In this document: piece by piece, positions 1-62,355 of the stretch
How the letters are laid out: each line of letters starts with the position of its first letter
Position numbering within the stretch: the first letter of the stretch is position 1
DNA from: Octopus vulgaris
Taxonomy: Eukaryota
DNA: 64,000 bases
Direction of reading: 5' to 3'
Assembly: GCA_951406725.2 (NCBI GenBank)
Contig: OX597814.1
Span: 162,750,001-162,814,000 of the forward strand
The notes under the pieces: generated by a model
Told to the model about the DNA's origin: nothing
Databases searched by the model: none
The model's input: only the letters and a program-made list of their open reading frames with translations
Made by a program: the position numbers and the translations under genes

Positions 1-399
1 TGCAATGGTACTAAAAGAACACTCGACACATACCTTAGGGAATTTAAGTATGTATATAAACAGTTTAATATAGGTTTATATTATTAACAGTTTCACAAAT
101 GTAGAAAGGCATGTCTGATCGATTGGACGGGGTAACACTAAGCCGTAAGATGGCTTCGGCTTCAGAATAAGCCTGGTTATCACTGAATAATAAGGAATGC
201 TGGATTATTTTTAGGTAATTTTGAAATCAGCACTTCGATGACTATTTGGTGTTACAGCGCTAGTCTGGTTAGTATATCAATATTTCGTGTTAAAATATGA
301 ATATGCTGTTAAATAACAACACTGAATGAATGCCTGATAGGTGTACTGCACCTGATAGGTGAAGTAAACCGATAAAGACACAGGTGTAACTGCTTCTTT

Positions 400-6220: not shown

Positions 6221-6495
6221 GCCACGAAACACGCGTCGTTATTCTACCAATTATATACGTTTTTATTATTTTTTTGCAATTTACTTAATCAATGGTATTT
6301 TATTGTTATTTTAATTTTAATATTTCTATCATATGTAATTTTCTAGATAGTGTAATTTAATTATTCATTTTGAATTGATAAAAGGTGGCTTTTTCTAATT
6401 TTTTATATATATATATTATATTGTGTGAAATTTGATTTAGTATTTCTAAATTGAATTTTTGCCCTGTAAGTTAAGATTAATTTTCCCTCAAATAA
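6221..6495 (+). mobile_element. Fragment of an HHR-bearing (Penelope-like) element 3' end
   Basis: Begins with the 3' half of a hammerhead (GAAAC-ACGC-GTC). Its end (6420-6490) resembles the reverse complement of 8780-8850. Confidence 0.4.
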
Positions 6496-8380: not shown

Positions 8381-8706
8381 GAAGTCATGGTGAAGTGGTT
8401 ACGTTTTTTCTTTTGAATTATAAGCCCCGGTTCAATCTCAGAATATGGCATTTTGGAGCAAGCATATTCTGGCATACCCTTTGAATGAACCATGCCTTAC
8501 AAATTAAATATGTTAGATGGAATATCTGATAAGCCTGTGTAAGGATTGTATTTTTAACGCAAAAATCCAACTACACAATGTTTCACGCCGATTCTGCCTG
8601 TAGCTTACGTTAAAAGTACAAGTATCCTCGCAATGCGCATCGTTGAAAACTCTGGAGGGCCATAAAATTTACTTGCATGCACGTGTGTGCATGTCTGTAT
8701 GTGTAT

Positions 8707-8772
<66 letters not shown>

Positions 8773-8949
8773 ATAAATATTAGGGAATAAATCCAAATTT
8801 ACAGGGAAAAAATCAGATTTAGGATTAAATCCAATTTTATAGTAAAATATTATATAATATTAATTCGAGACAAAACCACTATTTTGCAAATCAAACAAGG
8901 AAAGACTTAATCAATACATAAAAAATTTTAATATAAAGTAAATAAACCG

Positions 8950-8993
8950 CCACTACAATTGTTTCATGTCTTCAAATGACATTCGTCAGGTGA
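8950..8993 (-). ncRNA. Minimal type I hammerhead ribozyme (minus strand)
   Basis: UCAC-CUGACGA-AUGUC auuugaa GACAU-GAAAC AAUU GUA/GUGG. Confidence 0.78.
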
Positions 8994-9055
8994 ATTTCCG
9001 ATCTTCTAATCAGTTTTAATTTACATAAATTAAAACTGATTAGAAGATCGGAAAT

Positions 9056-9099
9056 CCACCTGACGAATGTCATTTGAAGACATGAAACAATTGTAGTGG
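9056..9099 (+). ncRNA. Minimal type I hammerhead ribozyme
   Basis: CCAC-CUGACGA-AUGUC auuugaa GACAU-GAAAC AAUU GUA/GUGG. Complete CUGANGA/GAAA/NUH core, 4-bp stem I, 5-bp stem II and a palindromic minimal stem III (ACAAUUGU). Confidence 0.82.
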
Positions 9100-9983
9100 C
9101 GGTTTATTTACTTTATATTGAAATTTTTTATGTATTGATTAAGTCTTTCCTTGTTTGATTTGCAAAATAGTGGTTTTGTCTCGAATGAATATTATATATA
9201 TGTATATATATATATATTTTTATATATGTGTGTGTGTATCAGCGGTGACTAGTAAAGTGAACGTGTATTTTCAAGCTGATTTAATTTCTACTAACGCTCG
9301 GGCTCCTTTTATTGAATCTAGTCGCAGTTTATTTTCGTTCAGCATCTCGCGGTCGTCTTAGAGGTGCCCTGTATCAAAAAATATCCTTCGTATCAGACGT
9401 TCTCTCGACATCGTTCACATGCGCCTGATTCGGGCTCAGAAGTTACAGCCCGAGTTGTTATCTATAATCGTAAAAATTAGAAGTAATCAAAATTCAATGT
9501 TTTCTTGAAGCAATAAATTTCTATATAGATTATGATTTAAATTCCAGTTTATGAAAAATTACCGTTCTACAATATTGTGAAAGGAACGAAAAATTATCCA
9601 GCAACTCCGGGCTAATACGAATGAGCCTGGTAGGTGTAAAAGACTGAATTGCATCTCTTGTCAAGAGTACGTGCAACAGTCAGATCGCTGATGTTTGTTG
9701 TGGACTCAGTTGTTGTTATTTGATTGCTGTTATTCTGTGTATCAGTGTGTAAAGATCAGATGTGCTTTGCAGGGTTGCTTTATTTCTACCCTTAACTTAG
9801 AAACAGAGAAAGACATAGTGCTAGATATGAAAATTAAGCCATTTGGGACTACAAATATTGCGCAAAACGTGAAATTCTTCGAGCAGGTATGTGTCTTATG
9901 CGAAATCTGTGATGAGCCCGGGTGACGAAATTTGCGATAAGCCCTAGTGATGCTGATGACCTGGAGTTGCCTCAGACATTTTG

Positions 9984-10542: not shown

Positions 10543-10780
10543 ATTCCAAAATGTAACTACACGTGAACTGTTGGCGATTTTTTCTTCCTTCTTCCTTTTC
10601 TTTTGGACCTTCTTATGTCTCCTGTTTCCAAAGAAAAGCTTTGCTCGAAACGTAAAACAATCACTCTTTCTTTCCTTCTCTGAGCGTACCACGTTACTCG
10701 ATTCGTTGTTTTTTCTTGTCTTCTTCCTCCATTTTGTGATTTTGTGTGTGCGTGTGTATACATATGTATACGCACTATAT
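10543..10780 (+). mobile_element. Penelope-like 3' region with a degenerate hammerhead (10624-10658)
   Basis: GTTT-ccaaaga-a-AAGC ttt GCTC-GAAACGTA-AAAC followed by CTGAGCG, the same layout as the minus-strand motif at 18767-18804. Confidence 0.5.
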
Positions 10781-11095
10781 ATTCTTTCTTCACTCGTTTA
10801 TTATTATTGTTCATATTCTCACTCATGTCCGTTGTCCAGAAATCTTTCGTCACACATCTGTGACCTCCTCAGCGACACTTTCTGTCTCGGTGTGCGCTCT
10901 TGCTCTGTTTGTTCCATTCAGTTCTCCTATAATATGTATCCTTATAGGAGAACAGAATGGACTAAGCCGAGTAAGCGCACACATGAAGACGGAAGGTGCT
11001 GATGAGGAGGTCACAGATATGTGACGAAAGATTTCCGAACAACGGACATAAGTTAGTATAAGAACAGTAATAAACCCGTGAAGAACGAATATTAT
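10780..11095. repeat. Diverged ~315-bp fold-back hairpin centred at ~10937
   Basis: GTTCTCCTATAA/TTATAGGAGAAC at the centre and TCTTTCGTCACACATCTGTGACCTCCTCA/TGAGGAGGTCACAGATATGTGACGAAAGA further out. A related single arm lies at ~19700-19800. Confidence 0.8.
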
Positions 11096-11096
11096 A

Positions 11097-11133
<37 letters not shown>

Positions 11134-15899: not shown

Positions 15900-17150
15900 C
15901 TTGCTTGAAGTTAACACCTCTTTTAACTCGTTAAATGCTTTTTGGCATTTCTCTGTCCAAACCCATTTGGCATTTGTTTCTTTTAGTATTTCATCAAGTG
16001 GTGCCTTTACCTTATGCATATTTGTGATATTCACTTAGTAATGATTTACCAAGTCTAGGAATGCTTGTAGCATTATCACGTTCGTCGGGGTCAGCATATT
16101 TCGTTTTGCCGTCGCCCTTGAATTTGTCCGCTCTGCGTCCATTTTAGTAAGTTACTTGACCTAGATATTTTAATTTTCAATCAAAAATTTGCATTTCCCT
16201 TCTGTATTCACTCATTCTCTCGGATACTTACTTTGTGTGTTCGTCGTGTTACACTCAAGAAGCGCTTTTTATCAAAATTTCATCGAGGTATACTTTGGCG
16301 AAGTCACAATCACTTAACATCGCTTCCATTATTTGTTGGAATATGGTGGGTGCCACTTTTACTCCAAACGGCAGACGTTTCAACTTGTACAGTCCACAGT
16401 GCGTGATGATTGTTAGTAGGTGTGTGCAATCTTCCTCTGAGTTTGAAGGTACATCTCTGAGGGGTCTATCTTCGAGAAAATTTTCCCTCCGTTTAGTTTA
16501 GCGAATACTTCTTCTGGGCTTGGTAGTAGGTAATTGTATACGAGTAAACATTTGTTCAATGCTTGTTTTAATTTTTTTTTTATGCCGGTGCTGCCCAGTC
16601 TCCATAGTCAACCTTTTCAATTATATTCCAGCTTTCCAATATTTCTAGTTCCTTATTGACCTGGTCTCCCGCCGTAAACAAGCACGTTCCACTTGGGCCC
16701 TAAATAGGTGTTGAATTTTATTTTTATGGCAATCCTTGATTTTATTTTTGTCAACAGCCTAAACCTTCCGAAAAAAGTTTTGGGAAAGTTTTTCATTTTT
16801 TGTTTCAGTTCATCGACCTCGTTCGATCGTTTGACTGCTCTGTTTATGTTATTGCACAAAACATTTATGGGTGTATCCCATAGATCAAATTTCTGCATAC
16901 TTTCGGTGCCAAATAAATTAATGGATTTTTTTCAACACATAAACATTCACATTTTTGGTTCGACCTTTGAACATTATATTACAAACGCGTTTCCCGTGAA
17001 ATATAATTTTCTTCCGGTAACATCGTACGTTAATTTCTTTGAACTACACAATTTTGTTTTACCCATTTGTTCTCATGTTTTCTAATTTATGATTGCAATG
17101 TCTAATTGCATTCTGACACTAGTGATTTCAATTCTCACGTTCACCAATTT
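15900..17150 (-). pseudogene. Gypsy pol remnant (protease and reverse transcriptase)
   Basis: Minus-strand motifs VRMQLD (protease), IIEKVDYGDWAAP, LPSPEEVFAKLNGGKIFSKID, THCGLYKLKRLPFGVKVAPTIFQQIME and AKVYLDEILI (YLDD motif altered). Frameshifts and stops. Confidence 0.88.
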
Positions 17151-17187: not shown

Positions 17188-18060
17188 CTATTCATTTTTC
17201 TTGTTTGTTCCATTTTCTTTCATTCTAGTTTTGCAGTGCGATTTTATATGTCCCGCAAACCCGCAGCGAAAAAATTTTATTTTTGTATACGGACAATCTT
17301 TTTTGAGGTGCATCCCACCACATGCCATATATGGGTCTACATCCCGATATTTTTTTCTGTTTTTCCTGCAACGATTTATTTGCCATCCGACCATTTTGCA
17401 CTGGTCGTATGTGAAAACACTCTTTCCATTGAATGTCATGCCTTAATTCTAATATCATGTCACACTCTTCCGACAGTTTCTGCAATGTCAAATCCTGATT
17501 CATTTCCAGGTTTGCTAGAATTTTCGTTCGGATTTCTGCATCCCTTTCATATGTCAATCCTTGTGCAAAAATCTTGAAAGAATCTGGAGTAAGTATATCC
17601 AGCCTAGATCTCTCACATTCTTTGCTAACTCTGCCTGTGTAAGCAGTGAAGTCTTCATCTTTTCTATGTTTAAACATTTCTATCTAGTATTAAACTGTGA
17701 GCTCTTTTCACTAAACAGTTTGCACAAAATGTCAACTGTGTCGGTGAAATGTCGGACGCTTCTTTTGGCAATATGAAGTTACTATACTTCTCATGCTCCG
17801 CTGTCGTTAGTTTTCTTAAAACTAGACGCGTTTTCATTTCATCCGTCCAAATCTGACGTTCTTTTTCAAAAATGTGTTCAAATCTTCGAAAGTAAGCCTC
17901 GAAGGTTATTCCTTTTTCAGAGTCATATTTGAATTCGCTCATGGAAATTGCTACATGATCAGGTGAAAATGTATTCTCCAGTTTGGCTAACAACTTCATT
18001 AATTGTAACATATGCTGCTGCAGTCCTGGTTGTTATTCTCGTTGTTCCTTGATTTGTTGT
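17188..18060 (-). pseudogene. Gypsy gag remnant with two CCHC-type knuckles
   Basis: ORFs 17670-18011, 17225-17677 and 17188-17439 are frameshifted pieces: FKYDSEKGITFEAYFRRFE... and CGGMHLKKDC...RCGFAGHIKSHC. Confidence 0.85.
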
Positions 18061-27313: not shown

Positions 27314-27359
27314 CTGCCACTGATGATCCGTGATACGGGGAAATCTCGTGGTACGGTAG
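27314..27359 (+). ncRNA. Type I hammerhead ribozyme
   Basis: CUGCCa-CUGAUGA-UCCG ugaua CGGG-GAA-AUC ucgu GGU-A/cGGUAG. Full core and three stems. The first stem I pair is an A-C mismatch here but G-C in the second unit. Confidence 0.78.

Positions 27360-27912: not shown

Positions 27913-27983
<71 letters not shown>
27817..27983. repeat. (TTC)n + (TTA)n microsatellite
   Basis: Direct reading. Confidence 0.97.
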
Positions 27984-27986
<3 letters not shown>

Positions 27987-29095
27987 TAGTTTTATTTTTA
28001 TAGCGTGCTTTCACTTCACTACCGAGCGCAGCTCTGTGTGCCTTGGGTATGTGCTGTGATTTGTTGTGATGCTCTGATGGTTATTGTATGGAAAGTGTTC
28101 TGCGTAGGATGTGTGCAGTGCCTAGTAGTGCAATTTTCTGTATGTTATATGTGTTTGTAAGTCCTGGTGTTTTTGTTATGTATTTGTCTGAATATTTTTT
28201 TATCATGCCTAATGCACCTACTATGATAGGAATTGTTTCTGTTTTCAGATTCCACATTCTAGTTACCTCTATTTCCAGGTCTTTGTATTTTGAGAGTTTC
28301 TCCATTTCTTTTAGAGAATGTTGTCATCTGCCGGTATTGATACATCAATTAGAAAGCATTTTTTTTCTTCATGATCTCTGACAACTATATCTGGTCTGTT
28401 GGCCTTAATTTCTCTATCTGTGTGTATCGGCATATCCCAGAGTATGGTTGCTTTCTCGTTTTCTGTGACCTTTTCTGGTGTGTGCCTATACCATCTTTTT
28501 TCTGTTGTTATTCCATAATGTTGGCATAGCTTCCAATGTATGTAGGTTCCAACTCTGTCATGTCTGTGAATATATTCCTTCTTAGCCAGGACTGGGCAGC
28601 TAGAGATAATATGATTTATTGTTTCTTGTCCATCTCCACATATTCTGCAGTTACTTGTAATATTTCTTTTCATTACATGTTTTTGGTAATTTCTGGTGGG
28701 GAGGCTTTGGTCTTGTGCTGCAATTAAAAATCCCTCTGTTTCTGCTTTGAGTCCTGAGCTTCTCAACCATTGCTGGGATTTTTCTTTGTCTATTTCGTTT
28801 GCCTTTAGTTTAGTGCAGTATTTACCATGAAGGGGCTTTTCTTGCCATCGTTTTATCATGGTTCGTTGCTGTTCTATTTTTAGTTTGGATTTCATTTGTT
28901 TTATAGCTTTTGTTCTTTCTTCATCATCATCTTCTTCTTCTTCTTCGTGTTTATTAGGTGGTATGATTTCTTGTTTGTATTTGTCAGCTTCCTTAAATAC
29001 TGAGAACAGTTTTTTGTTTTGCTCGTGTTTTGCTGCTATCTGGATCAGTTTTCCTTCCTTCTGAAGTAGGTATTTTTGCAGTCCTATGGTGGTTA

Positions 29096-29097
<2 letters not shown>
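27984..29097 (-). mobile_element. 5'-truncated R4/Dong-like LINE (CCHC knuckle and RLE endonuclease) inserted in (TAA)n
   Basis: ORFs 28311-29165 and 28081-28305 give CRICGDGQETINHIISSC, RHD, RPDIVV, IDVSIP, KLSKYKDL and PIIVGALG, with one frameshift near 28315. (TTA)n on both flanks. Confidence 0.92.
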
Positions 29098-29147
<50 letters not shown>

Positions 29148-29149
29148 TG

Positions 29150-30510
29150 ATGAAGAAAGGACCAAGACTGGGCGCCTCGCTCCTAGAATGTCGTTAGGTG
29201 CTCACAGCAATGGCATCGGTGGATGTTCTTCTTTAGCAATTGGTAGAGGATTATTGGCGGGGAAGAACGACGACGCTCTCGGGAAGACCCTGGGCGTCGA
29301 CGAAAACGAATTGGCTAGTCTTTCTGGAGGAATTCTCAGTCGGGAACTATCATGGATAATCTCCAGACGTCCTTGGCCTGGCAGTGCTACCGAAGTGTGG
29401 AGGGGGCGCTACCGGTTCGGGATAAACTTTACAAGCACGGATTTACTGTTATACTTACTTGACCGAGATGCGCACAGAGTTACGAAACCGATCTGCACGC
29501 ACTCAGTGTCTGAGCATTGCTGACTTGTGAAGGCGCAGGAGTGGCTGTGTGGTAAGTAGCTTGCTTACCAACCACATGGTTCAGGGTCTATTCCCACTGC
29601 GTGACACCTTGGGAAAGTGTCTTCTACTATAGCCTTGGGACGACCAAAGCCTTGTGAGTGGATTTGGTAGACGGAAACTGAAAGAAGCCCGTCGTATATA
29701 TACGTATATATATACATATATATGTATGTATATGTTTATGTATGTGTGTGTATACGTTTATGTGTCTGTGTTTGTCCCCCAACATCGCTTGACAACCGAT
29801 GATAGTGTGTTTACGTCCCCGTAACTTAGCGGTTCGGCAAAAGAGACCGATAGTACTAGGCTTCCAAAGAATAAGTCCTGGAGTCGATTTGCTCGTCTAA
29901 AGGCAGTGCTCCAGCATGGCGCAGTTAAATGACTGAAACAAGTAAAAAAAGAGTTAAAAGAGTTAGCTGCTGTTACGTGTGTAACGAATCTGTCTATCGG
30001 CCGAGTCCATAGTGATGATTGCCCCACCGCCAACCTCTAATCGGGCAGGCAAGGTAGTTTTCTTTTTCCTGGTGGCTGTGGCGAAAGAAATTATCTGTTG
30101 GACGAGGCAGAAAGGCATGAGGACAGACAGATACATTCCTCTTTGGGAGAAGTCTCATTGATTTTGAAGTTTCACTTGAAAAGAAAATTTAGGGTAGAGA
30201 AGGCAGTGCTGTCCTCGAGTGAGTTTATTGAAAGGAGGCTGAAAGTTGAAAACATGGCAAGAGAGGAGGGTACCACTCTAAGTGTAGTACTGTGTGTCGG
30301 AGGCAGGGAATTGCAGAGGGAGCTTGTCCTTGGTGTGCAGGTAGATCTTGGACGGTGGAATTCTTCGTTTATCTCTAAGGGTCATCTTGTATCAAGAGGA
30401 CGACATAACTATTATTACCCTCGTTTTGTCTTTTAGCTTTGTATTTCCCTTCCTTTTCATTGTATACCGTGTGTAGTTACTCTTTTTTTTTTGTTATTTA
30501 TTTATTTTAT
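29150..30510 (+). mobile_element. Tx1/L1-like LINE 3' fragment (zf-RVT region) interrupted by a SINE
   Basis: LAWQCYRSVEGALPVRDKLYKHG...PRCAQSYETDLHA before the SINE, and FLVAVAKEIICWTRQK...KFHLKRKFRVEK after it. Confidence 0.72.
29532..29950 (+). mobile_element. SINE family B nested in the Tx1-like LINE
   Basis: Near-consensus full-length copy. Confidence 0.9.
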
Positions 30511-30790: not shown

Positions 30791-31262
30791 ATAAGTTCGT
30801 CAATCGGCGTTCTTTTATGTATCTGTCTGCATTCATAGAGAGAATTATCATCGACACCAACAACACACGAGCATGAGAACAAATATTATGAATCAGATAT
30901 TTCTTGCGTTCATTTATATGTGTGTGTGTGTATGTGTGTTCTATATATAAATATGTATATATAATGTATATATACAAAGTGTATATATCTGTATTTATGT
31001 ATATTAAACTTTTTAATACTTTTTGATAGTTATATATATTTTTAAACAAATTATAAATATAATTTAATAATTTTTATTTTTAAATTTAAATAATTTAAAT
31101 TTTTTAATTTTATATTTTATATATTTTATATATTATATTTTTATTTTTATGTTTTTGTTTTTGGTTTTTCACTGTTTGATTTGCCTATTAGTGGTTTTAT
31201 CTCTAATTTAATTTATACATATATATATATATAATTTGTATACATTTGTATATATAATGCGT

Positions 31263-43750: not shown

Positions 43751-45527
43751 GTATAGCCATGCAAGCGCAAGCACACACAGTCAAACGCGTGCGCGCATTT
43801 ACATTAATAGTGTCACTCGTAGTTTCGTTACTAACAATTTCTCAAACGCTTGTAATGAGCACGTGCGCGCGCACATACACACACATTTGCACACATACGT
43901 TTATGTGCAGGTGTGTGTGTATGTGTGTGTGCGTGCGTGCGTGTGTGTGTGTACGTATGCGGGCGAGTGATTTAAGGTGAAATGTGAGCCAAAAAACGGT
44001 AGTCTCCTAATTTTGTCATCGGTAAGTACCTCACTAGTTAAATCGTACAACTCTTCTAGCCTGATGTGTGTAATTTGAAGGTAAATAAAGCTAACCTTCC
44101 AGTTTTACATTCAGATAATATCAGTAGTAATTCTTTAGAGATTTCCCGTGTATTTATGATATATATATATGTTACCGTGAAGTCAAATAGAGCGCATGTT
44201 GGCAACATCGCCTGCGAAACAGATAAATATTATTTATCACATCTGAAAGACCTTATGTAGAGTGTCATTCTCAGGTTAGATACACATGCCTTGATTTATA
44301 CGTTCTGTGGAATGTTGAGTTGTTGTTTTCTTTACTAGCATATCGTTGCCGCAAACAAACCTATTTGGCAACTTACCAATTAAGCTTTGCACTTAGTAAC
44401 TGTAACTAATTAAGTCTGTGTTAGACGCCATTATCATCGAAGTTAACTGAGTAATTGATGTAAAAACGTGGTGTAACATTCGACATTTTCTAGTATTTTA
44501 AGATTCTATTAACCTACTTCCTAATTATTTCAAGCATTATTGAATAACCGATATTTCATCAAGAAATGCATTTTAATTGTCAGTTTCCCGCTAAAATAAT
44601 TCTATATAATGATTTTTTAACTTAGGTGCACAGTTACAAGTTTTGTTTTTGGCTTTTCGTTCTTTTCTTTTCTTTTATTTTTTGTGCGATGTTTATCATC
44701 GACTCAAACGCATATCCACTGCTAGCACTTGACTGGGATTCGGAAGCAAGTTTGTGGCCGCTCTAACTGACAGAAATGGTAGCCAATCATAACATATCCC
44801 TACTGTCTTAGAAGCAGAATACATTAGATAATGTAGTCTTAGTTACTCTATGTCTGAAAATAAGGTTGGAATAGCTTTGACTATTGGTTTGTGCGATCAG
44901 AGTGTCCCAGGGACTACACAGCAACAAAAACTGCAGTGGTTTCTCAACTAGAGCAAGAGATTATAGGAGATTACCAGTTAATATTACTTCAGAATTGTTA
45001 ACAGTGGACAGTTATTATAGAAAAGTAAGCTGAATAAAAATGACCTACGTATTGAACTACAAGCACAAAGGTCTTACATTCAAACCCATCACAGAATTTC
45101 GGGACAGTACAGATGACTTTAGAAAAAAAAAGAAGAAAGCTTAATGGGTCGAGCTATGAAAAATAGATATCAGATCCTTGTTAGAGTGTTACCCAAGAAA
45201 GACGTCATCCTGCTCTTTTAAAGATTTATCTCAGATCAGCGTATCGATGTGTTACCAGTAAACCAGAGCTAAGAACTGGTTTTCAAAATCTCTTCGAGTT
45301 TTAAGGGGCATATTTAGATTTACACACATGTAGAATTCAAGATGATTTGTTGAGTAAAAACCATACTTAATAAATTAGATAGATGTAGAAGTAGTTTTGC
45401 AGCATGCAGCTTTTCGATATAGCCAAAATAAAGCTGAATGCTAGAATGGATTTGAAAAAGATAAAAAGCATTCTTTGGCATAGTCATTTTTATTGAAATA
45501 CAGTGCATCGAGGAACACAATACAGAC

Positions 45528-45558
<31 letters not shown>

Positions 45559-45616
45559 CATACATACATACATACATACATACATACATACATACATACA
45601 TGCATGCATACATACA

Positions 45617-45650
<34 letters not shown>

Positions 45651-46264
45651 CATACATACATGCATACATACAGACATACATACATACATATACACACACA
45701 CACGTGCATACGCACACTCGCAAGCGTATATTGGTTGGTTATTTCTCCAGTCACAAAGAGTAAAAAAAGAGATACTGAGAGAGTTAACGTAAGAGGTGTT
45801 GGATGAGTATATTAGGCTTGGTGGCAGGTAATGTGTTAAGGAGATGCTCACAGTAAGAATCATAGAAATGGAAGAGGAGGAGGAGGAGGTGGAGGTGTAG
45901 GAAGGGGAGGAGGTGGATTAAATGAGTGAGCAGTTATGAGAGGAGTTATGCAAGTGAGGAATTTGTTTTCTGTACAATAACGTACGTATTCATTCATTCA
46001 TTCATTCCCAATACCTTCTGGCAAAGTGGAACGTAAATGTCTGATTGCTATCGATTTTCGTCCACTAAAAACAACAGCGATCAGATACTCACGTCCTAAT
46101 TGAGGATGAGCAGGTAGATTATTGTTTCCATTCTCGCTGTTGTGCGTGCAATTCTTGAATTTATTCATCTATTTCGGAGTCATCAGCACGCATCAGCAAA
46201 TATATTCTTTGCTGACTTCTATGAGCAACATCTTGTATTTTGTTAGATTCACCGGTCTACATAG

Positions 46265-59526: not shown

Positions 59527-59850
59527 AATCTTTTGTGCCCATTATTTTTATGAGCTTGTTAAACTTTTTTATATTCTCAACATGCTCTTGTCACCAAAGA
59601 ATGTATATTTATATGGATTATAGTACTCTGTGTCAACCAATATTCTGTGCATGTTTGAATATACAGATACAATACCAATATCAATTCCTTCTGGAAACTA
59701 TTTTAAGCATGTCCTTGAGAACGATTATTTATGTAGTAATCTTTTGTGCCCAATATTTTAAGGAACTTGTTGAACTTTTTTATGTCCCTAACATGTCCCT
59801 GTTACCAAAGACTGTATATATGTAATGTAGCAATTTGTAACAACCAATAA
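59525..59850 (+). repeat. Diverged direct repeat (~210-bp period) leading into the palindrome
   Basis: GTAATCTTTTGTGCCC...ACCAAAGA.TGTATAT occurs at ~59525 and ~59736. Confidence 0.75.
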
Positions 59851-60119
59851 TTAACGCAACCAAACTTCTACATGTTACTTTTGACAATCTTTTCCCAAAG
59901 AGTGAAACCGGTAAAGTAAATAAACATCTTTTAAATTGCATTTTCAAACCTTCTTTCGTATATATATATATATACGAAAGAAGGTTTGAAAATGCAATTT
60001 AAAAGATGTTTATTTACTTTACCGGTTTCACTCTTTGGGAAAAGATTGTCAAAAAGTAACATGTAGAAGTTTGGTTGCGTTAATTATTGGTTGTTACAAA
60101 TTGCTACATTACATATATA
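59815..60119. repeat. Near-perfect 305-bp palindrome centred on (TA)8, with degenerate hammerheads in both arms
   Basis: The arms differ only by a 1-nt homopolymer indel as far as I can read. 59876-59918 reads TACTT-TTGACAA-TCTTT tccc AAAGA-gt-GAAA CCGG TA/AAGTA. Confidence 0.92.
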
Positions 60120-61886: not shown

Positions 61887-62330
61887 CCGATACACACAGA
61901 TAGAGAAATTAAGGCCAACAGACCAGATATAGTTGTCAGAGATCATGAAGAAAAAAAATGCTTTCTAATTGATGTATACCGGCAGATGACAACGTGTCTC
62001 TAAAAGAAATGGAGAAACTCTCAAAATACAAAGACCTGGAAATAGAGGTAACTAGAATGTGGAATCTGAAGACAGAAACAATTCCTATCATAGTAGGTGC
62101 ATTAGGCATGATAAAAAAATATTCAGACAAATACATAACAAAAACACCAGGACTTAAAAACACATATAACATACAGAAAATTGCACTACTAGGTACTGCA
62201 CACATCCTACGCAGAACACTTTCCATACAATAACCATCAGAGCATCACAACAAATCACAGCACATACCCAAGGCACACAGAGCTGCGCTCGGCAGTGAAG
62301 TGAAAGCAAGCTATAAAAATAAAACTACTG
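61885..62330 (+). mobile_element. 5'-truncated R4/Dong-like LINE in (TAA)n
   Basis: Nearly identical to the 3' part of 27984-29097, with a 4-nt deletion near 61977. (TAA)n on both flanks. Confidence 0.92.
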
Positions 62331-62355
62331 AATAATAATAATGATAATAATAATG

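What the first reader, a model, noticed from the sequence alone, without database searches (positions are those of the whole stretch)
8851..9198. 348-bp palindrome presenting a canonical minimal hammerhead on each strand
The 173-bp arms with a 2-nt spacer carry the cleanest HHR in the window (CCAC-CUGACGA-AUGUC/GACAU-GAAACAAUUGUA-GUGG), pointing outward from the centre. The few arm mismatches argue for a real, slightly aged structure rather than a read chimera. It could extrude as a cruciform, and in RNA the hairpin would compete with the ribozyme fold. Related fragments occur at ~6420-6490 and ~31170-31210.
Basis: partly seen in the sequence, partly recalled or inferred. Interest (0 to 1): 0.75.

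Follow-up and report, generated by a model that had tools for sequence, protein, structure and literature searches.

The report
Spliced Penelope retrocopy forming a palindrome
This palindrome is one of hundreds of head-to-head, intron-less stubs of a Penelope-type jumping gene, likely made when its reverse transcriptase copied the front end of a spliced RNA twice from two start sites, which would explain why full-length elements of this kind seem always to keep their introns; its hammerhead motif is predicted to be locked up by the hairpin.

Summary
The palindrome and both hammerhead motifs are real, but the element is larger and asymmetric: 8768-9198, with an ~83-bp tail on one arm. It is the 5' leader of a Hydra-type Penelope-like element (PLE) whose intact ORFs lie elsewhere in this genome. 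In long copies a 1.0-1.8-kb GT-AG intron precedes the hammerhead; both window arms carry the exact exon-exon junction instead and stop just inside an initiator-like start. Spliced junctions number at least 74+229 across several subfamilies. Of 95 head-to-head pairs, 90 join one short end to one tailed end; none mixes a spliced and an unspliced arm; no ORF-linked hammerhead examined was spliced. Best model (inferred): both target nicks prime cDNA at two internal sites on a spliced sense RNA and the two short cDNAs join head-to-head, a dead-end product. Only unspliced read-through RNA would yield long copies. That argues against the published antisense-template idea. Ribozyme cleavage is untested, and the hairpin should block it here. 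The scan reached the same reading at another locus of this genome, and found spliced PLE stubs in other genomes.

The parts
8768..9198 (.). Whole insertion: two head-to-head, intron-less copies of the PLE leader in a (TA)n tract
8768..8850 (-). Tail (~83 bp), on the left arm only; runs on towards the ORF start in full-length copies; its end is the inferred downstream RT start site
8851..9023 (-). Left arm (21-nt exon-1 remnant + exon 2), continuing into the tail
9024..9198 (+). Right arm (23-nt exon-1 remnant + exon 2), ending at the short end, the inferred upstream RT start site
9024..9046 (+). Exon-1 remnant; splice junction between 9046 and 9047 (a 1078-1098-bp GT-AG intron lies here in L062/L061)
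9003..9023 (-). Exon-1 remnant of the left arm; junction between 9003 and 9002
9056..9099 (+). Type I minimal hammerhead motif; predicted cut after A9095; self-complementary stem-loop III; possible stem I extension 9045-9050 with 9100-9105
8950..8993 (-). Mirror hammerhead motif; one stem I pair changed from C-G to U-G
8703..8767 (.). (TA)n target tract, left flank
9199..9230 (.). TA-rich target tract, right flank
6402..6494 (+). Old fragment related to the tail; separate insertion
31125..31217 (+). Old fragment related to the 3' part of the arm, ending in (TA)n; separate insertion

Best explanation
The palindrome consists of two intron-less copies of the leader of a Penelope-like retrotransposon joined head-to-head, likely made when the element's endonuclease nicked both strands of a (TA)n target and each nick primed reverse transcription of the spliced sense RNA from one of two internal start sites. 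Shown: homology to the autonomous element, exact loss of the GT-AG intron, two fixed 3' ends (about +155 and +237 of exon 2, upstream of the ATG at about +292), one of each per pair, and 5' ends clustering at an initiator-like motif. Inferred: both start sites lie within ~270 nt of the RNA 5' end, so a promoter-started RNA gives only short cDNAs; their 3' ends anneal by AT-rich microhomology and copy each other, giving an asymmetric palindrome with its own centre. Long and ORF-bearing copies need read-through RNA reaching the downstream repeat and keep the intron. The hammerhead is a passenger: the template was uncut, and any read-through transcript of the palindrome meets the antisense arm first.
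For: Direct-repeat hammerhead pairs 5.5 kb apart flank RT and GIY-YIG reading frames; intact 838-841-aa ORFs exist. Junction counts: 74 spliced to 5 donor-bearing of 79 exact exon-1 matches; other subfamilies 229 spliced and 282 donors. Their exon 1 ends in AA, so the cut is unambiguous, and each subfamily has its own spliced form. 90 of 95 head-to-head pairs are short+tail; 27 spliced+spliced, 10 unspliced+unspliced, 0 mixed; 14 of 15 more pairs in older subfamilies, read by eye. 110 of 114 spliced arms keep 6-38 nt upstream of the junction, mode 27 nt, the A of TCACT. In 20 of 37 spliced+truncated pairs the truncated arm bears the tail, and in 8 of these the short arm is whole to its 5' end, so each arm holds sequence the other lacks. 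Arms of a pair share subfamily alleles (117 against 30 shuffled) and private variants (7 against 0.07) in 60 pairs. Of 30 ORF loci, 19 had an upstream same-strand hammerhead: 15 scored unspliced, 3 more unspliced by eye, 1 unclear, 0 spliced. 230 of 244 classified ends abut TA repeats. In vitro, a lizard PLE protein nicks and extends both strands, starts at two internal sites that bound the tail and uses uncut RNA (PMC11167929).
Against: No direct read evidence of splicing: only contigs from runs guessed to be RNA were available. The locus sample is enriched for spliced arms by the queries used. 4 arms and 8 more are spliced yet extend 82-250 nt upstream of the donor, so the start site is not unique. 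Shared private variants also fit fold-back copying or gene conversion, and two passes over one RNA need strand displacement, which is not shown. 19 of 84 spliced loci are solo. One older pair is short+short, but it lies in a larger inverted duplication that includes its flanks. Pfam and PDB sequence searches did not recognise the RT; the assignment rests on motifs matched by eye to the Hydra alignment in PMC8557442.
Confidence: 0.7

Rival explanations
1. Same spliced template, but one cDNA is made, folds back at its 3' end and copies itself; later deletion or gene conversion shapes the centre.
For: Arms share 7 private variants against 0.07 in shuffles and never mix splice states; centres often carry small local inverted duplications.
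Against: Fold-back cannot put sequence in the second arm that the first lacks, yet 20 of 37 truncated arms carry the tail while the partner is longer at the 5' end, 8 of them whole to the start site; exon-1 lengths do not differ between full and truncated pairs (P=0.35).
Confidence: 0.2
2. A non-autonomous palindromic master (MITE-like or SINE-like) lost the intron once and spreads as a unit.
For: High copy number, small size, inverted ends; two pairs of unlinked copies share a junction.
Against: Spliced forms exist in at least five exon-1 variants, each matching an intron-bearing source. The 27 spliced+spliced centres differ, even the two halves of one local duplicate. Of the two shared junctions, one pair differs in exon-1 allele and the other in which arm is tailed. 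The ends are asymmetric.
Confidence: 0.06
3. Self-priming on an antisense template, proposed for PLE inverted repeats and intron retention (PMC3846280).
For: Head-to-head orientation is what that model was built to explain.
Against: An antisense transcript of an intact element cannot lose a sense GT-AG intron exactly; at least 303 exact spliced junctions were counted.
Confidence: 0.03
4. A functional host structure (cruciform or ribozyme switch), or an assembly artefact.
For: A long near-perfect hairpin could yield dsRNA if transcribed.
Against: It is one of many young dispersed copies, arm divergence 1.7% against a family mean of 1.4%; no host protein domain found in 101 window ORFs, only retroelement-type hits. 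The tail asymmetry and family-wide rules exclude a read chimera.
Confidence: 0.01

Closest known systems
Hydra-clade Penelope-like elements (Craig et al. 2021, PMC8557442; includes Hydra-1_Obim)
   Same: C-terminal GIY-YIG-type domain, DKT, CxCX5C linker, CxxC and CxH, hammerhead, (TA)n targets; RT blocks match the paper's alignment by eye.
   Different: A different family from Hydra-1_Obim by the N-terminal sequence; unit ~5.5 kb or more, not <3 kb; KWK for RWK; clear pLTRs, ~83-bp tail and a 1.0-1.8-kb leader intron; abundant spliced stubs, not mentioned in the passages read.
Complex PLE insertions with inverted pLTR and 30-40-bp tail (Adineta vaga Pen2a, PMC3846280)
   Same: Head-to-head inverted repeats, tail on one end only.
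   Different: Here the whole insertion is two leaders with no ORF, and both are spliced, which the antisense-template model does not predict.
Anolis Poseidon PAc in vitro (Frangieh et al. 2024, PMC11167929)
   Same: Two RT start sites bounding the tail, both strands nicked and extended, AT-rich target, uncut RNA as template.
   Different: PAc starts inside the ORF; here both ends lie in the 5' UTR. The parts read do not treat head-to-head joining or splicing.
Drosophila virilis Penelope leader intron and hammerhead (PMC2377424, PMC4209133)
   Same: Short first exon after an initiator, leader intron ending just before helix I, small palindromic helix III.
   Different: Intron 75 bp against 1.0-1.8 kb; those papers discuss retention of the intron in genomic copies.
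Non-LTR retrozymes (bioRxiv 10.64898/2026.07.22.740005)
   Same: Short, non-coding, hammerhead-bearing derivatives of PLE repeats.
   Different: Retrozymes are direct tandem repeats; these are inverted, tailed and individually formed.

Membership tests
EN+ Penelope-like element (parent family) | Single ORF with RT and C-terminal GIY-YIG endonuclease | tested here: met
   838-841-aa ORFs with YRDD and YIG motifs, matched by eye to the PMC8557442 alignment. Pfam and PDB searches gave no RT hit, so the basis is motif-level.
EN+ Penelope-like element (parent family) | Partial-tandem direct pLTRs flanking the ORF | tested here: met
   L061 274 bp, L062 1352 bp direct repeats
EN+ Penelope-like element (parent family) | Inverted 5'-truncated copy and one-sided tail | tested here: met
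   90 of 95 pairs short+tail; tail ~83 bp, longer than the 30-40 bp reported
EN+ Penelope-like element (parent family) | Hammerhead in the pLTR | tested here: met
EN+ Penelope-like element (parent family) | Intron retained after transposition | tested here: not met
   Not met for the window insertion and at least 303 junctions; met for ORF-linked copies, 18 of 19
Hydra clade | DKT, CxCX5C linker, CxxC and CxH, no CCHH cysteines in the endonuclease core | tested here: met
   against section 11 of PMC8557442; absence of CCHH read by eye
Hydra clade | RWK motif | tested here: inconclusive
   KWK at the equivalent place
Hydra clade | (TA)n target | tested here: met
   230 of 244 ends
Hydra clade | Generally under 3 kb | tested here: not met
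   Unit 5.5 kb in L061 and L062; the paper gives this as a tendency
Hydra clade | Placement in the RT phylogeny | not tested
   No reference sequences were held as files
Type I minimal hammerhead of metazoan PLEs | Conserved core and helices I-III | tested here: met
   Each core position other than N7 kept in at least 252 of 258 motifs (the search pattern itself favours this); N7 varies C/A; pair 10.1-11.1 is A-U 140, U-U 61, U-A 48
Type I minimal hammerhead of metazoan PLEs | G10.1-C11.1 pair | tested here: not met
   A-U in the window
Type I minimal hammerhead of metazoan PLEs | Palindromic helix III allowing dimers | tested here: met
   8-nt self-complementary stretch; cofold gives the dimer, -21.2 kcal/mol
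Type I minimal hammerhead of metazoan PLEs | Rfam RF00163 gathering score | tested here: not met
   11.8 of 34 bits, E 3.9
Type I minimal hammerhead of metazoan PLEs | Self-cleavage | not testable with these tools
   No significant pile-up of 5' truncations at the cut site (11 of 49 in +49..62; P=0.45 after scan correction)
Non-LTR retrozyme | Direct tandem monomers | tested here: not met
   Copies are head-to-head or solo
MITE / TIR DNA transposon | Symmetric terminal inverted repeats and a shared internal sequence | tested here: not met
   One-sided tail, different centres

The most novel reading that the evidence does not exclude
Penelope-like elements do reverse-transcribe their spliced sense mRNA, often, but because priming starts internally near the RNA's 5' end and from both target nicks, spliced RNA yields only dead-end mini-palindromes. 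Intron retention in full-length PLEs and their head-to-head, one-tailed ends are then two results of one double-priming mechanism.
Probability: 0.6. Interest if true: 0.75.

Novelty: new variant of a known kind. Interest (0 to 1): 0.6.

Why it matters
PLEs are described as retroelements that keep their introns, and the reason is called unknown (PMC8557442, section 15); an antisense template was proposed (PMC3846280). Hundreds of exactly spliced genomic copies show that sense, spliced RNA is used. The one-short-one-tail rule links the two in vitro start sites to the two target strands. This gives sharp predictions for the existing in vitro PLE assay and names intact ORFs to test them with. The single locus itself is probably inert.

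Tried and rejected
Whole-window repeat and Rfam scans were swamped by microsatellites and generic miRNA-hairpin hits. Unconstrained folding does not give the hammerhead as the lowest-energy monomer (z about 0). Pfam and PDB searches of the ORF gave no RT hit; the Atlas did not hold the sequence; homologue search gave 19 mostly unnamed proteins. Sequencing runs: no RNA holder listed on record; on contigs three runs guessed to be RNA had no cover of the intron-end bin while a large run of unknown kind did, a weak hint at most, and no read spanning the intron or the window's centre was examined. An extra G before the start site as a cap signature: 10 of 24, mostly explained by the partner arm; rejected. 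Pile-up of truncations at the ribozyme cut: not significant. The first allele comparison had alignment artefacts for short truncated arms and was redone on 60 of 95 pairs without homopolymer columns. The young/old label was meaningless and dropped. Alignment A1 was mis-framed and not used. The pattern misses spliced copies whose exon 1 ends in AA, so its 44 spliced to 50 unspliced of 96 is not a family-wide ratio. More distant Hydra-like families were not tested for spliced stubs.

Full report
Observation. The palindrome 8851-9198 is as described: 173-bp arms, three mismatches, two unpaired central bases. A hammerhead core lies on each strand, pointing outward, with the predicted cut after A9095. 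Rfam support is weak, 11.8 of 34 bits.

A dispersed family. The right arm finds 66 matches among 40 scored of 1759 candidates, mostly in head-to-head pairs; the 44-nt ribozyme occurs 82 times exactly. The copies show that one arm carries an extra ~83-bp tail, here 8768-8850, and that ends abut (TA)n: 230 of 244 classified ends.

The parent element. Two same-strand ribozyme pairs 5.5 kb apart (L061, L062) flank broken RT and GIY-YIG frames. A protein search found 151 matches among 150 scored candidates, with intact 838-841-aa frames. They carry KWK, DKT, YRDD, CxCX5C, YIG, CxxC and CxH, the marks given for the Hydra clade (PMC8557442), and match its alignment by eye, but differ from Hydra-1_Obim. 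Pfam and PDB searches did not recognise the protein.

The arms are spliced. In long copies a 27-nt first exon after TCACT is followed by a GT donor, a 1042-1824-bp intron and an AG acceptor 9 nt before ribozyme stem I. Both window arms join the exons directly (9046/9047 and 9003/9002). For this subfamily 74 of 79 exact exon-1 matches are spliced; 17 exact intron acceptors were counted. Other subfamilies give 229 spliced junctions and 282 donors; their exon 1 ends in AA, so removal is exact. Each subfamily's spliced form matches its own intron-bearing source, which argues for repeated splicing and copying rather than one intron loss.

Rules of the insertions. From loci fetched up to (chosen by searches that favour spliced arms), 256 arms were classified. 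Of 95 head-to-head pairs, 90 join a short end (about +155) to a tailed end (about +237); 5 have one irregular end; none is short+short or tail+tail. Pairs were 27 spliced+spliced, 37 spliced+truncated, 10 unspliced+unspliced, 15 unspliced+truncated, 6 other, none spliced+unspliced. In older subfamilies 14 of 15 pairs follow the rule (by eye); the exception sits in a larger inverted duplication. Of 114 spliced arms, 110 keep 6-38 nt upstream of the junction with a mode at 27; 4 keep 96-98. Eight further spliced arms reach 82-250 nt upstream, none into the body of the element. Of 24 places with sequence upstream of the initiator, 20 keep the intron. Of 30 ORF loci, 19 had an upstream ribozyme: 18 unspliced, 1 unclear. 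Centres differ in all 27 spliced+spliced pairs.

Mechanism (inferred). The top strand of the left arm and the bottom strand of the right arm are each what a first-strand cDNA primed from a target nick would read. A lizard PLE protein nicks and extends both strands, starts at two internal sites that bound the tail, and uses uncut RNA (PMC11167929). Here both sites lie in the leader, so a promoter-started spliced RNA gives two short cDNAs that stop near its 5' end and join by microhomology. Simple fold-back fails for the 20 of 37 pairs where the tailed arm is the truncated one, 8 with a whole short arm. Arms share alleles far more than shuffled partners (117 against 30 common, 7 against 0.07 private, 60 pairs), so they come from one RNA or one source; fold-back or conversion can also give this. 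The likeness to LINE-1 twin priming is recalled, from no call.

The ribozyme. Across 258 motifs the core is kept, N7 and loop II vary, and pair 10.1-11.1 changes between A-U, U-U and U-A. Helix III is self-complementary, as in dimer-acting PLE ribozymes (PMC4209133). Each strand of the palindrome holds one sense motif, preceded by its antisense; the hairpin (about -271 kcal/mol) dwarfs the ribozyme fold (-7.2). The templates were uncut, and truncations show no significant peak at the cut.

Literature. Seen: PMC4209133 and PMC11167929 (parts 1-2 of 4 each); PMC8557442 (passages, sections 11 and 15, supplement rows and passages); PMC3846280, PMC2377424, PMC3681739 and bioRxiv 10.64898/2026.07.22.740005 (passages; preprint supplements not seen). 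Nine searches listed no paper that, in the titles, abstract starts or passages read, reports intron-less genomic PLE copies. The library lacks many subscription papers, and the 2003 intron-retention paper was not seen, so priority is uncertain.

Earlier scan notes. A sequence look-up found nothing. A word look-up showed the same reading for another locus of this genome (e1-10340866) and spliced PLE leader copies in other genomes.

Verdict. Real; a new variant of a known kind; the locus is probably inert, the family pattern is informative. Interest 0.6.

Noticed in passing
window 59815-60119: A second near-perfect palindrome (306 bp, 99%) with a (TA)n centre, made of two ends of another repeat whose end also abuts (TA)n in L004; no hammerhead seen.
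   Followed up: partly
window 10770-11102: Older self-palindrome, 80% identity.
   Followed up: no
window 27316-27350 (+), 3525 (+), 46271 (+): Other hammerhead-like cores; the one at 27320 has clear stems I and II and may mark another PLE family.
   Followed up: no
window 16258-16497, 17673-18032, 28314-29201 (-): RVT_1, DUF7083 and zf-RVT fragments, likely decayed retroelements; the only Pfam hits among 101 ORFs.
   Followed up: partly
window 27960-28317 and 61997-62354: 358-bp copies, 98% alike, in opposite orientation: a young dispersed repeat.
   Followed up: no
window 45515-45692: 70% match to the 3' untranslated region of the full-length element.
   Followed up: no
L271 (G000:C5:64450500-64452500) and L120: Spliced stubs with two or three tandem restarts of exon 1 plus ribozyme; these would hold several sense hammerheads in cis, a retrozyme-like arrangement.
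   Followed up: no
L061 3300-3600, L062 ORF: Asparagine-rich stretch between the RT and endonuclease domains, like the N-rich inserts of Adineta PLEs.
   Followed up: no
L221, L222, L228: A more distant Hydra-like family (about 43% protein identity, 904-907-aa ORFs) has a hammerhead with a much longer stem II.
   Followed up: no
G000 C1:13260728-13265930, C1:166324817-166335775: Same-strand exon-1/donor motifs repeated every ~1.74 kb, suggesting tandem promoter-intron units in an older subfamily.
   Followed up: no
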